Source of the DNA: Enterobacteria phage phi80
Direction: 5' to 3' (one strand)
Sequence record: NC_021190.1
DNA: 46,150 bases
In this document: positions 30,001 to 33,000 of the stretch, in pieces
Layout: every line of letters starts with the position of its first letter
How positions within the stretch are numbered: position 1 is the stretch's first letter
Program-made: the position numbers

Positions 30001-33000
30001 CTTCAGCTTTGCGCTGCTCTTCGACCAAACGGGCGGCTTCTGCCTCTTCCTGGCGGCGGCGCTCGGCGGCAACGGCTTCTTCTTTTTCGCGGCGCGCACG
30101 CTCTTCGGTTTCCTTCTTCTCGCGTTCCGCACGCTGTTCCGCTTCAATGCGCTGGCGTTCAGCCAGCTCTGCACGTGCTTTCTCTTCAGCTTCACGGCGC
30201 GCTGCGGCTTCAATCTCCGCTTTGTGCTTCGCTTCGGCATCTCGGCGGGCTTGTTCTGCTGCTTCGCGCTTAATGCGCTCTTCGTGCTCACGCCGAGCCT
30301 GTTCCGCCAGGCGGCGCTGCTCTTCGCGGTCACGGTCGAAATCCTTGTTCATCAGCAGAGCCATTTCGTGGTCTGCTTCGAACTTGGCCGCCAACTCCTG
30401 ATCGAACTTGATGTTCATTTCCAGCGCTTCGGCGTGCAGCGCGTTCATGGCTTCTTCAGCCTTAATGCGTTCCTGCTCGGCTTCCCATTCGGTGAGTGGG
30501 CGGCGGGTTGCGTCGCGAAGCTCGTCACATGCATCAACGAAACGCTTAATTTCGGCCTCAGCAGGTCGCACAGCCTCTTTCAGGCGCTTCAGGTACTCTC
30601 GGCCCGGCTTTTCAATTGCCGTCTTACTGCGTGATACCTGCGCTGCCAGAGAGGCGACACGGTCACGTCCTTTCTTCGTGGACAGGTCCGGCACTTCGTT
30701 TACTGCCTGGCGGATTTGCTCGAGATAAGCATCAAGGCCGCCCGCTACGTAAAGCACTGGGGCCTGTTCCGGCTTGATTTCGATGACAGTTAAGTCCGTT
30801 ACTTCGCTCATGGTTTCTCCTGAAATTTTGATGTGCAGATCTCGCCCTCTGGTGACAGGCAGCAGTTGAATTGGTTAAGGGTTATTTGCCTATGGATCTG
30901 AAAATGCGTATATGGCTAGTTGATTGCTTCGTTAAGCATTTTCTCTATAGCCAGCTTGCCGTCATTTATCTGAGCAACTTGCTTATCGAAGTTCTCTTGG
31001 TAGTGGGCGAGATTCTTTTCCGATGCAGAGAATAGGCGTTCTTTGATTTTTTGTAACTCATCCCTGCTGAAAACAATGCCCATATTGCGGCACTTTTTGA
31101 CATCATCAATGCTCAGGCCGTTACCATTGAGTTTTTCCAGGGCAATGCGCTTAACACACTGCCTGGCTTCTTCAATAGTCTTGTAGAACTCAACCGTATC
31201 GCTTCCACCACTGCCATCTGAATAGCAATTTACTCGTAAAGCTATATCTCCATTAGTGCTGCCCAAAAGAGATAAGCACTTGATACCTTCAAATTTCTTA
31301 CGCCCATAGTAGTTGTCAATTGAAGACATAAAATCTTCATATCTTTCAATGGACGGCACACCGTAATCACGACGAATGGCAAATTTAACCTGCCCGGTCA
31401 TTACATCTGCGAAATGGTCCAGGTCAGCATCATTGATATGATCTGAGAACGCTTTTACCTGCTTAACCATTTCTCTCCAGAAACTTAATGTATTCTGTAG
31501 GTTGCTAATTTCCGAGTTGATCTTTTCAATTTTCAACTTCGCATCAGCAAGGGCTTTTTCTTGTTTTGCTTTTTCACGAGACAACCATGATTCAACTGGC
31601 TGGTCATGTAGACTCTTCACCACAAAACGCTCGCCACCAGGGATTTCATCACCCTGCTGCGTGACAAACACTTCCTGGACGATCGTTTCCTGATTATTCA
31701 ACGCACCAACGACAACGACCTTACGGCCGTCAGAAAGAAATTTAGTTTCCATGACAAAGTCCTTAATGGGTGAGAGGGTTGCCGTGACCGTCCAGAAGGA
31801 CGTCAATCACGCAGTCACTGAGGCGGATGATTTCTGCGTCGGTGTGCAGGTAGACCCATTTGCGCTCCTGAATGACTGCTGAGACGCGATATGTGCGGCC
31901 TTCATGCAATGCCATCATGCCGGGCGTGACGCACTGGCGAATGAGCGGGGTGGTGCCGTAGTGGTTGATCATGCCTTCACCTCAACCTGTTCCAGGAGGC
32001 CAGCCAGCTTCATATGCCAGCGGTTCATCGTCAGCTTTTCACGCGGGTTAGATACCGACGTCAGCTGCCACTCGTTATCGTTGAGCTTTTTGGCGGTGTA
32101 CTGCTTGCCGTTGTGGGTGACTGTCATCTCACACCACCTTGAATAAGAACCAGCCCATACCGCACACAATCAGGCCCACAATGGTTATTGCGGAAGACAT
32201 GCGTACATGGTCAATGGCTAGTTTTGAAAGTGGCTGGCGATGTTCTTTTTTCGTCAGCGAGTTGATTGCTATGTCGAGCAGAAACGTCCCGACAAACCAT
32301 AATGCGTATATCTTTAAGCCCAACTCCAAATCACTCATAAATCCTCTTGGCCTTATCGCGGCGAACGGAACGGTTAATACAAGACTTCAACGCATTTATT
32401 CAGTGTTTCAATGGTCGGTGGATGGCCGCCGGTTGTCATAACTTGAGCCACTCGTAAATGACTCCAGGTATGAAAAAGCCGCTGGTTAGGCGGCTATTGA
32501 GGTTCGCGCGGCTTGTGGTCGAATCGGTGCCACCCGTCAGTTAATTCAAATGGAGCATAACTTTCCCGGCGCTCAGCGAACCCAAGCTCAACAGACAGAG
32601 CGTGCAGCTCATGCCGACGCTTAATCTGTTCCATCGCAATCCAGTCAGCATCGGCATTGCGCTTTTGAGCTTGCTTCGGCGACAGGTCTAAACTGTTTAT
32701 TTCACTTAGTTTCTGCTGACGCTTGATGTCCTGTTTCATATTGCGAAGCGCATTTATCATTGAGTCGATGCGCTTGATGTCGTCGATCATCCCCTTACCC
32801 TCTGTCGTTACCCGCTGATGCGGGAGAAATGCTTTGGCGATGTGGTAGGTGGGAGACCCATTTCGACCCGATTCGGCCTACTTATCTTCGGCAATAGCTC
32901 CTCGGGCCTCGCCGCTTTACGTGCGACATATTCCCGTCCATGAACCCTTCACCACATCCCATAACATTCCCTGTATTGGTCAGCGCCAACTCCCTGCCAG

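What the first reader, a model, noticed from the sequence alone, without database searches (positions are those of the whole stretch)
30916..32338. AT-rich accessory genes in the leftward early operon
A 278-aa protein and three small ORFs, one a two-helix membrane protein, occupy the region where lambdoid phages keep host-takeover and anti-defence genes (kil, cIII, ral, ssb), and their GC is lower than the neighbouring recombination genes. None has a motif I recognise.
Basis: inference. Interest (0 to 1): 0.5.

Follow-up and report, generated by a model that had tools for sequence, protein, structure and literature searches.

The report
Phage phi80 early-left accessory genes
This stretch is the start of phage phi80's leftward early operon: four real genes, of which one is a known type of cell-division inhibitor (Kil) and three, including a sporadically inserted AT-rich 278-aa gene, have no known function. 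It is an ordinary lambdoid layout rather than a new system.

Summary
The window is phage phi80/Lula. The interval 30916-32338 holds four tightly packed minus-strand genes just downstream of gene N and a tL1-like terminator, so they are N-dependent pL genes.

- **orfA** (32129-32338) encodes a 69-aa two-helix membrane protein. Its family is narrow and limited to enterobacterial prophages.
- **orfB** (31969-32127) encodes 52 aa. In 80 of 80 related loci a kil gene follows it, and that kil comes from either of two unrelated families.
- **kil** (31763-31972) passes the curated KilR "FtsZ inhibitor" model and is 41% identical to Rac KilR.
- **orfD** (30916-31752) encodes 278 aa and lies on a discrete 897-bp cassette of 42% GC. 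Close relatives lack this cassette.

orfD belongs to a large uncharacterised family of about 480 clusters at 50% identity. All members share one architecture: a very conserved acidic N-terminal beta-barrel, a coiled coil, a central domain with no match to any solved structure, and a second coiled coil. Its RefSeq name "zf-TFIIB" is wrong.

Only orfD and orfA are AT-rich; kil and orfB are GC-rich. Nothing here shows anti-defence activity, and orfB does not resemble lambda cIII. The genes are already annotated, so interest is low to moderate and rests mainly on the orfD family.

The parts
32477..32495 (-). tL1-like intrinsic terminator hairpin (6-bp GC-rich stem followed by U5) overlapping the N stop codon; it places the four genes in the N-dependent part of the pL operon
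   Evidence: Terminator scan. RNA fold gives -9.7 kcal/mol with z -1.7, so the hairpin is only modest. GenBank M11919 annotates a 't-L1 regulatory signal terminator' at record positions 1408-1777, which correspond to window 32432-32063 and therefore overlap orfA.
32129..32338 (-). orfA: 69-aa small membrane protein with two hydrophobic helices and a basic connecting loop (TKKEHRQPLSKLAIDHVR); function unknown
   Evidence: ORF list. Hydropathy peaks of 1.6 and 2.2. phrog_25975 at E 1e-50. 46 homologues, all at least 77% identical, in Escherichia, Enterobacter, Salmonella, Citrobacter and Leclercia. Present in 15 of 80 related loci, always directly upstream of orfB. Variable sites by codon position 3/3/14. 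AAGAGGA Shine-Dalgarno-like sequence upstream.
31969..32127 (-). orfB (GenBank PHI80_44): 52-aa basic soluble protein; conserved left neighbour of the kil slot; function unknown
   Evidence: phrog_6396 at E 6e-36. 287 homologues, mostly 52 aa. Starts 1 nt after the orfA stop, and its stop overlaps the kil start as ATGA. A kil gene follows it in 80 of 80 IMG/VR loci. Variable sites by codon position 21/10/39.
31763..31972 (-). kil: 69-aa KilR-family inhibitor of cell division (FtsZ; for Rac KilR also MreB)
   Evidence: NCBIfam NF008465 'FtsZ inhibitor protein' at 117 bits against a cut-off of 92. phrog_294 'Kil' at E 5e-30. 41% identity to Rac KilR, E 2e-15. No hit to Pfam Lambda_Kil.
30916..31752 (-). 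orfD: 278-aa protein of an uncharacterised phage family: acidic N-terminal beta-barrel (1-55), long helix (56-105), central beta-rich domain with a YSDGSGG loop (about 120-225), C-terminal long helix (230-277)
   Evidence: phrog_16901 at E 5e-141. 220 homologues. Alignment. AF2 models with pLDDT 83 and 85. A profile of the N-terminal domain finds 479 cluster representatives, nearly all 255-290 aa. No Pfam, NCBIfam or PDB relative.
30875..31771 (.). 897-bp AT-rich cassette carrying orfD; replaced by 13 bp in close relatives, so it is a discrete accessory insertion between kil and the 322-aa gene
   Evidence: blastn junctions against L016, L020, L025 and L041 break at window 31772 and resume at 30874. 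Cassette GC is 42.3% against flanks of 54% and 58%. The cassette also replaces the last codons of kil, giving ...NPLTH instead of ...NPIQH. orfD is present in only 5 of 80 orfB-bearing loci.
32494..32790 (-). context: gene N (antiterminator), immediately upstream in the operon
   Evidence: 100% identical to the phi80 N records M11919 and X13065.
29843..30811 (-). context: 322-aa gene (phrog_1376) followed by gamL, recT and exo, immediately downstream in the operon

Best explanation
The interval is the promoter-proximal, N-dependent (delayed-early) segment of the pL operon of phage phi80/Lula. After infection or induction, pL transcripts that N has modified read through the terminator at the end of N. 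They then express four co-oriented, tightly packed genes, separated by a 1-nt gap, an ATGA overlap and a 10-nt gap.

1. kil is a KilR-family protein. By homology it transiently blocks Z-ring assembly, and possibly MreB function, during lytic growth.
2. orfB is a conserved 52-aa gene that flanks a recombinationally exchangeable "kil slot". Its own role is unknown.
3. orfA is a small two-helix inner-membrane protein with a narrow distribution. By inference it is a membrane-directed host-modulating factor.
4. orfD is a horizontally acquired, AT-rich, stand-alone cassette gene. By inference from its architecture it forms a coiled-coil oligomer and uses its very conserved acidic N-terminal beta-barrel to bind a partner that is conserved across Gammaproteobacteria. 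That partner could be a host protein or a phage protein, and the target and the effect are both unknown.

Shown here: that the genes are real, the operon placement, Kil family membership, the cassette boundaries and the family architecture. Inferred: the activities of orfA, orfB and orfD.
For: - Identity of the window: 100% match to phi80 N records and to the phi80dlacZ prophages of DH10B and DH5alpha.
- Operon placement: terminator-like hairpin at the N stop, and no minus-strand promoter between 30600 and 33400.
- Gene packing and ribosome-binding sites.
- Kil: NF008465 at 117 bits against a cut-off of 92; 41% identity to Rac KilR. Rac KilR is reported to disrupt Z-rings and mislocalise MreB (PMC12482147).
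- The kil slot. In 64 of 80 loci a KilR-type gene directly follows orfB. In 5 more it follows after an extra insert. In the remaining 11 a lambda-Kil-type gene starts at the same ATGA; a representative scored 42 bits against PF06301, cut-off 27.6.
- orfD cassette: clean indel boundaries and a sharp GC contrast.
- orfD family size and architecture: 479 representatives, one architecture, no domain fusions.
- orfD conservation: the N-terminal domain averages 79% identity across the family against 25-41% for the rest of the protein, and has pI 4.6.
- orfD neighbours: no conserved partner among 317 neighbouring proteins from 40 diverse loci.
- orfA and orfB are coding, judged by variation at codon positions.
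Against: - No function is demonstrated for any of the four genes in phi80 itself. The Kil assignment rests on homology at 41% identity. The C-terminal tail reported as critical for Rac KilR toxicity differs in phi80 and is shorter.
- The terminator hairpin is weak (z -1.7). The historical tL1 annotation instead covers the orfA region, so the exact termination point is uncertain.
- The proposed "binding head" role of the orfD N-terminal domain is inferred only from its conservation pattern. No partner was identified, and no oligomer was modelled.
Confidence: 0.8

Rival explanations
1. orfD, and possibly orfA, is an anti-defence (counter-immunity) gene. On this view it is an early-expressed inhibitor of a host restriction or abortive-infection system.
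For: - orfD is a patchily distributed, low-GC, promoter-less cassette in the early operon, which is typical of counter-defence accessory genes.
- Distant homologues lie in early arrays of small genes. In L093 the homologue is two genes from a Tad3-family gene and next to a DNA methylase. In L094 it is in the same array as a Gad2-family gene. In L007 it is next to two DNA methylases.
- The extreme conservation of the N-terminal domain fits binding to a conserved target.
Against: - No sequence or structural similarity to any characterised protein, including the families searchable here.
- No anti-defence HMM library was available, so this was not directly tested.
- Counter-defence proteins usually track variable defence systems and are themselves variable, whereas this N-terminal domain is nearly invariant from Enterobacterales to Pseudomonas and Halomonadaceae.
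- Neighbourhood associations appear in only 2-3 of about 50 contexts examined.
Confidence: 0.25
2. orfD is an accessory DNA-transaction factor attached to the recombination module, for example an ssDNA-binding or recombination-mediator protein.
For: - It sits next to or near recombination genes in several unrelated backbones. These are gamL-recT-exo in phi80, Erf in PdC23, Sak4-SSB-exonuclease in phiPSA1 and RdgC-SSB in a Halomonadaceae prophage.
- Foldseek's top, non-significant PDB hits are ssDNA-binding folds of the PC4, Sub1 and Pur-alpha type, at E 0.2-1 and probability up to 0.75.
Against: - The N-terminal and central domains are acidic, with family mean charges of -3.3 and -4.5.
- 75 of 80 close relatives carry the same recombination module without orfD.
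- No recombination gene is a consistent neighbour across 40 diverse loci.
- A recent survey of lambdoid recombination modules names only GamL, the RecT-type annealing protein and Exo as phi80 module components (PMC12315714).
Confidence: 0.12
3. orfB is the functional analogue of lambda cIII. On this view it is a small FtsH inhibitor that stabilises the phage's CII-like activator and so promotes lysogeny.
For: - It has the same size class (52 aa against 54 aa).
- It has the same position: directly upstream of kil and overlapping its start, as cIII does in lambda.
- No lambda-type cIII homologue is found anywhere in phi80 or in the related loci.
Against: - No BLASTP alignment with lambda cIII even at E 100, and no cIII family among the Pfam matches at E up to 1.
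- The hallmark amphipathic helix of cIII is absent. The best 18-residue hydrophobic moment is 0.34, which 62% of shuffles reach. Lambda cIII scores 0.83, which none of 500 shuffles reach.
- The phi80 CII-position protein belongs to a different family, named YdaT-domain by PGAP, so dependence on FtsH is not established.
Confidence: 0.07
4. orfA is not a gene. On this view the stretch is only the tL1 termination region annotated in the 1980s, and the ORF is fortuitous.
For: GenBank M11919 marks record positions 1408-1777 (window 32432-32063) as the 't-L1 regulatory signal terminator', and this covers orfA.
Against: - The 69-codon frame is intact in 46 protein clusters at 77-97% identity across five genera.
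- Variation falls mainly at third codon positions, 3/3/14.
- There is a good Shine-Dalgarno sequence and 1-nt coupling to orfB.
- No minus-strand intrinsic terminator is predicted inside it.

A Rho-dependent terminator could still coexist with the coding sequence.
Confidence: 0.03

Closest known systems
KilR of the E. coli Rac prophage (NCBIfam NF008465 / PRK11354, 'FtsZ inhibitor protein')
   Same: The phi80 69-aa protein scores above the curated cut-off (117 bits against 92). It is 41% identical to KilR over 64 residues and shares the H(F/Y)GT...RQCVTPG...LHEGRTY core. It lies in the same operon position, upstream of the recombination genes.
   Different: It is 4 residues shorter and has a different C-terminal tail, the region reported as critical for KilR toxicity (PMC12482147). 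In Rac there is no orfB-like gene upstream; an sRNA gene, kilS, lies there instead. The activity of the phi80 protein is untested.
Lambda early-left segment N - tL1 - ral - ea10 - cIII - kil - gam - bet - exo
   Same: The overall logic is the same: N, then a terminator, then small accessory genes, a Kil, an anti-RecBCD protein, an annealing protein and an exonuclease.
   Different: The phi80 Kil belongs to the KilR family, not the Lambda_Kil family PF06301. No ral, ea10 or cIII homologues were detected. orfA, orfB and orfD have no lambda counterparts.
Lambda cIII (FtsH inhibitor)
   Same: orfB matches cIII in size and in its position immediately upstream of kil.
   Different: There is no sequence similarity and no amphipathic helix.
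Sporadic accessory gene cassettes of lambdoid genomes (moron-like insertions)
   Same: orfD is a discrete 897-bp insertion with deviant GC (42% against 54-58%). It is present in some close relatives and absent from most.
   Different: Classical morons carry their own promoter and terminator and are expressed from the prophage. No promoter or terminator was found around orfD, and it starts 10 nt after kil, so it is probably expressed only from pL.

Membership tests
KilR / FtsZ-inhibitor family (NCBIfam NF008465) | Whole-protein HMM score above the curated cut-off | tested here: met
   117 bits against a cut-off of 92, covering residues 1-69.
KilR / FtsZ-inhibitor family (NCBIfam NF008465) | Direct similarity to the characterised member, Rac KilR | tested here: met
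   BLASTP gives 41% identity over 64 aa at E 2e-15.
KilR / FtsZ-inhibitor family (NCBIfam NF008465) | Toxicity with filamentation, Z-ring disruption, rescue by FtsZ, and MreB mislocalisation | not testable with these tools
   These properties are reported for Rac KilR (PMC12482147). No data exist for the phi80 protein.
Lambda Kil (Pfam PF06301) | Match to the Lambda_Kil profile | tested here: not met
   The phi80 69-aa protein gives no hit at E up to 0.1. As a positive control, the alternative kil-slot allele from related loci scores 42.2 bits against a cut-off of 27.6.
Lambda cIII | Sequence similarity to cIII | tested here: not met
   orfB gives no BLASTP alignment at E up to 100 and no cIII family among its Pfam matches at E up to 1. 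tblastn with cIII finds nothing in the window.
Lambda cIII | Strongly amphipathic central alpha-helix | tested here: not met
   The maximum hydrophobic moment of orfB is 0.34, no better than its shuffles. Lambda cIII scores 0.83, which none of 500 shuffles reach.
Lambda cIII | Position immediately upstream of kil in the pL operon | tested here: met
   ATGA overlap with kil. In lambda, cIII overlaps the kil start.
zf-TFIIB zinc ribbon (the RefSeq name given to orfD) | Match to the zinc-ribbon profile | tested here: not met
   The Pfam scan of orfD at E up to 1 returned four families and zf-TFIIB is not among them. It is also absent from the 25 families matched by the most members when all 36 family members were scanned.
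zf-TFIIB zinc ribbon (the RefSeq name given to orfD) | Two CxxC pairs | tested here: not met
   orfD has only four Cys residues, at positions 159, 176, 199 and 221, so none form a CxxC pair. They are conserved in 4, 1, 4 and 25 of 36 members respectively.
PC4 / Pur-alpha-like ssDNA-binding fold (considered for the central domain of orfD) | Significant structural match | tested here: not met
Known anti-phage defence or counter-defence families | Profile match | tested here: inconclusive
   PADLOC gives nothing beyond one coiled-coil noise hit at E 0.003. No dedicated anti-defence library was available.
Moron (autonomously expressed accessory cassette) | Discrete insertion with deviant composition | tested here: met
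   897-bp indel, 42.3% GC against flanks of 54% and 58%.
Moron (autonomously expressed accessory cassette) | Own promoter and terminator | tested here: not met
   No minus-strand sigma-70-like promoter or terminator flanks orfD, and its start is 10 nt after the kil stop.

The most novel reading that the evidence does not exclude
orfD may represent a widespread, unrecognised class of early phage effector. The family has about 480 clusters at 50% identity, spans phages of Enterobacterales, Pseudomonas and Halomonadaceae, and appears on contigs up to 140 kb. On this reading, a nearly invariant acidic N-terminal beta-barrel docks onto a host protein conserved across Gammaproteobacteria. The variable coiled-coil body and a central domain with no match to any solved structure would then deliver a host-takeover or counter-defence activity.
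Probability: 0.25. Interest if true: 0.6.

Novelty: already known. Interest (0 to 1): 0.3.

Why it matters
phi80 is a classic laboratory phage, and the phi80dlacZ remnant in DH5alpha, DH10B, TOP10 and JM83 contains this exact segment. Common cloning strains therefore carry a KilR-type division inhibitor and three genes of unknown function.

The practical results are corrections and sharper targets.
- Two RefSeq product names are misleading: "cell division protein FtsZ" for kil and "zf-TFIIB domain-containing protein" for orfD.
- kil sits in an exchangeable slot anchored by orfB.
- orfD is a clean, separable cassette from a large uncharacterised family with a strikingly conserved N-terminal domain, which makes it a reasonable target for a partner-finding experiment.

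None of this changes the current picture of lambdoid early operons.

Tried and rejected
- **Profile libraries.** Pfam, NCBIfam and PADLOC scans of the four proteins found only the KilR hit. PHROGs gave families of unknown function for the other three. A Pfam scan of all 36 orfD family members gave only coiled-coil noise.
- **PDB by sequence.** Searches with orfD alone, with the full-family profile and with the N-terminal-domain profile found nothing meaningful. The best hit, a 22-residue match to an [FeFe]-hydrogenase at E 0.005, was judged spurious. Kil against PDB gave no hit.
- **Structure searches.**
  - The whole model searched with Foldseek against PDB returned nothing below E 0.2.
  - The PC4-like lead was therefore dropped.
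- **Domain fusions.** A search for the orfD N-terminal domain in other architectures, across 1.84 billion representatives, found only the one architecture.
- **Conserved partner gene.**
  - The small gene downstream of six homologues is not conserved.
  - 317 neighbours from 40 loci fall into 260 clusters, and only N-like antiterminators and cI recur.
- **cIII analogy for orfB.** Rejected on sequence and on amphipathicity.
- **Non-coding RNAs.** Rfam found no credible family in 30600-33600.
- **Literature.**
  - The phi80 genome paper (Rotman et al. 2012) is not held in the library.
  - Accession and PHROG identifiers for these proteins appear in no held paper.
  - Nothing was found on a phi80 cIII or on phi80 anti-defence genes.
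- **Upstream slot.** An attempt to cluster the variable gene upstream of orfB in loci lacking orfA gave an uninformative single-linkage cluster.
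Full report
**Identity of the window**

The interval matches the GenBank phi80 N-gene records M11919 and X13065 at 100% and 99.5% identity over the part they cover. 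It is 100% identical over its whole length to the phi80dlacZ prophage of DH10B, DH5alpha, TOP10 and JM83. The window is therefore phage phi80, also known as Lula.

RefSeq annotation of the DH10B copy gives this minus-strand gene order:
- S24 repressor (cI)
- a 288-aa gene
- N (297 nt)
- a 69-aa gene
- a 52-aa gene
- a 69-aa gene named "cell division protein FtsZ"
- a 278-aa gene named "zf-TFIIB domain-containing protein"
- a 322-aa gene
- gamL, recT and a lambda-type exonuclease

**Checking the observation**

All four ORFs are present on the minus strand: orfD 30916-31752 (278 aa), kil 31763-31972 (69 aa), orfB 31969-32127 (52 aa) and orfA 32129-32338 (69 aa).

They are tightly packed.
- One nucleotide separates the orfA stop from the orfB start.
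- orfB and kil overlap as ATGA.
- Ten nucleotides separate the kil stop from the orfD start.
- Each gene has a Shine-Dalgarno-like sequence upstream.

orfA has two hydrophobic segments with a basic loop between them.

All four are real genes.
- Each matches a PHROG family at E 5e-30 to 5e-141.
- There are 220 homologues of orfD, 46 of orfA and 287 of orfB.
- Variable sites by codon position (1st/2nd/3rd) are 21/10/39 for orfB and 3/3/14 for orfA, concentrated at third positions as expected for coding sequence.

The composition claim is only half right.
- orfD is 42.5% GC and orfA 45.7%.
- kil is 57.1% and orfB 54.1%, both above the genome mean of 52.1% and above recT and gamL.

**Operon context**

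A terminator-like hairpin (6-bp GC-rich stem followed by U5) overlaps the N stop codon at 32495-32477. It is modest, at -9.7 kcal/mol and z -1.7. No sigma-70-like promoter lies on the minus strand between 30600 and 33400.

The old GenBank entry M11919 marks a broad "t-L1" region that corresponds to window 32432-32063, which covers orfA. Either way, the four genes lie beyond tL1 and should be N-dependent delayed-early genes. This mirrors lambda, where N is followed by tL1, small accessory genes, cIII, kil, gam, bet and exo.

**kil**

- The 69-aa protein scores 117 bits against NCBIfam NF008465 "FtsZ inhibitor protein", whose cut-off is 92.
- It matches phrog_294 "Kil".
- It is 41% identical to KilR of the Rac prophage at E 2e-15.
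- It does not match the unrelated Lambda_Kil Pfam family.

Rac KilR is reported to disrupt Z-rings at low expression levels and to mislocalise MreB at high levels. Its C-terminal tail is reported to be important for toxicity (PMC12482147). The phi80 tail differs and is shorter, and the phi80 protein has not been tested.

**orfB and the kil slot**

I fetched 80 IMG/VR loci that encode orfB homologues at 87-100% identity. In every one, a kil gene follows orfB.
- In 64 loci a KilR-type gene starts at the ATGA overlap. It is either the phi80 type (at least 90% identical) or a Rac-like allele (about 41% identical).
- In 5 loci a KilR-type gene follows after an extra insert of 230-520 nt.
- In 11 loci a 46-57-aa gene starts at the same ATGA. 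Two representatives were scanned against Pfam Lambda_Kil. The common 46-aa form scored 42.2 bits against a cut-off of 27.6. The divergent L051 form scored only 14.5 bits.

All alleles begin with similar codons (M-I/T-N-H), so the orfB 3' end and kil 5' end act as a recombination junction. orfB is therefore a conserved anchor next to an exchangeable kil slot. Rac KilR has no orfB upstream, so Kil does not need orfB.

orfB occupies the position that cIII holds in lambda, and no lambda-type cIII is detectable in phi80. However, three results argue against a cIII-like role.
- orfB has no sequence similarity to cIII.
- It has no cIII family among its Pfam matches.
- It lacks the hallmark amphipathic helix. 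Its best hydrophobic moment is 0.34, no better than shuffles. Lambda cIII scores 0.83, which none of 500 shuffles reach.

I rate the cIII analogy as unlikely.

**orfA**

This family is narrow. It comprises 46 clusters, all at least 77% identical, in Escherichia, Enterobacter, Salmonella, Citrobacter and Leclercia. Among deposited phages only phi80 carries it. It is present in 15 of the 80 related loci, always directly upstream of orfB. No family or motif was found. Its function is unknown. A membrane-directed host-modulating role is inference only.

**orfD is a discrete cassette**

Close relatives that lack orfD (L016, L020, L025, L041) are collinear with phi80 down to window 31772 and again from 30874. 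Thirteen base pairs replace the 897 bp in between.

The cassette is 42.3% GC, against flanks of 54% and 58%. It also replaces the last codons of kil. Only 5 of the 80 loci carry it, and 3 of those are phi80 itself. No promoter or terminator flanks it. It is therefore a moron-like insertion that is probably expressed from pL.

**orfD protein family**

- **Size.** The family has 220 members at the 90% clustering level. A profile of the first 58 residues finds 479 representatives at the 50% clustering level. Of these, 411 have E below 1e-10. Nearly all are 255-290 aa with the domain at residue 1, so there is one architecture and no fusions.
- **Range.** Members occur in prophages and phages of Enterobacterales, Pseudomonas and Halomonadaceae. 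They appear on viral contigs up to 140 kb, yet in only 8 of 50,697 deposited phage records.
- **Conservation.** The N-terminal 55 residues are acidic (pI 4.6) and average 79% identity to phi80 across the family. The rest of the protein averages 25-41%.
- **Predicted structure.** AlphaFold2 (pLDDT 83) predicts four parts.
  - a small beta-barrel at residues 1-50
  - a 50-residue helix
  - a beta-rich central domain carrying a conserved YSDGSGG loop
  - a second 48-residue helix
  
  The isolated central domain models at pLDDT 85 and pTM 0.75.

Searches for relatives found nothing.
- Sequence profiles find no PDB relative and no Pfam family in any of the 36 members scanned.

The RefSeq name "zf-TFIIB" is unfounded. 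The protein has four scattered cysteines, none in a CxxC pair, and only one is semi-conserved.

**orfD genomic contexts**

In nine contexts inspected individually and 40 diverse IMG/VR loci, the gene always lies in early arrays of small genes. It is often one to four genes downstream of an N-like antiterminator. It is sometimes next to recombination genes: Erf, Sak4-SSB, RdgC-SSB or RecT.

One homologue is two genes from a Tad3-family gene, and another shares an array with a Gad2-family gene. No partner gene is conserved. The 317 neighbouring proteins fall into 260 clusters, and the small gene downstream is unrelated between loci.

**Interpretation**

The best-supported account is an ordinary one. 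This is the delayed-early accessory segment of the phi80 pL operon, and it contains:
- a KilR-type division inhibitor
- its conserved neighbour orfB
- a small membrane protein
- an acquired stand-alone gene of a large uncharacterised family

For orfD, the architecture and conservation pattern suggest a coiled-coil oligomer whose N-terminal barrel binds a partner conserved across Gammaproteobacteria. This is inference, not demonstration.

Anti-defence (about 0.25) and recombination-accessory (about 0.12) roles remain possible for orfD but are unsupported by homology.

**Novelty and interest**

The genes are already annotated in the published phi80 genome and in many RefSeq genomes, and the one assignable function belongs to a known family. 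The new elements are corrections and anatomy:
- the mis-named products
- the kil slot
- the cassette boundaries
- the definition of the orfD family and its conserved head

Interest is low to moderate at 0.3. It would rise if the orfD N-terminal domain proves to target a conserved host factor.

Noticed in passing
window 33588-34457 (-): A 289-aa gene with DUF7946 and DUF7947 domains (210 and 74 bits) lies between N and cI, the position rexAB holds in lambda. It is AT-rich (42% GC, GC3 38%) and gives a weak PADLOC candidate-defence hit (PDC-S42, E 1e-5). The same gene sits next to the repressor in a Yersinia prophage (L009). The Lula/phi80 prophage is reported to interfere with P1 development (PMC2885432), so this is a candidate prophage defence gene.
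   Followed up: partly
window 29843-30811 (-): A 322-aa protein (phrog_1376) contains a Glu/Arg/Ala/Lys-rich helical stretch of about 150 residues. It is present in 50 of 80 related loci between kil and gamL. Its function is unknown.
   Followed up: no
L001 (DH10B) 4117-5173; window 30916-31972: RefSeq/PGAP product names are misleading. The KilR-type FtsZ inhibitor is called 'cell division protein FtsZ'. orfD is called 'zf-TFIIB domain-containing protein' despite having no zinc-ribbon motif, and the name has propagated to Pantoea phage PdC23 gp45.
   Followed up: yes
L011-L090, about 2656 in locus coordinates; window 31972: The kil position after orfB is polymorphic. It holds a phi80-type KilR homologue, a Rac-like allele (about 41% identical) or a lambda-Kil family gene, all starting at the same ATGA junction with similar first codons. 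Five loci carry an extra insert of 230-520 nt between orfB and kil.
   Followed up: yes
window 31969-32169 (-): The GenBank phi80 annotation (PHI80_44) uses a 66-aa TTG-start version of orfB that overlaps orfA. Homologues, including those in loci without orfA, support the 52-aa ATG start at 32127.
   Followed up: yes
window 35671-36213 (+): PGAP names the 180-aa protein in the cII position 'toxin YdaT domain-containing protein', while a related phage annotates its homologue as 'CII-like transcriptional activator'. It is not a lambda-CII family protein.
   Followed up: no
window 32063-32432: The historical GenBank feature 't-L1 regulatory signal terminator' (M11919) spans orfA and the start of orfB. 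The only intrinsic-terminator-like hairpin found lies upstream of that feature, at 32477-32495. A Rho-dependent element inside orfA cannot be excluded.
   Followed up: partly
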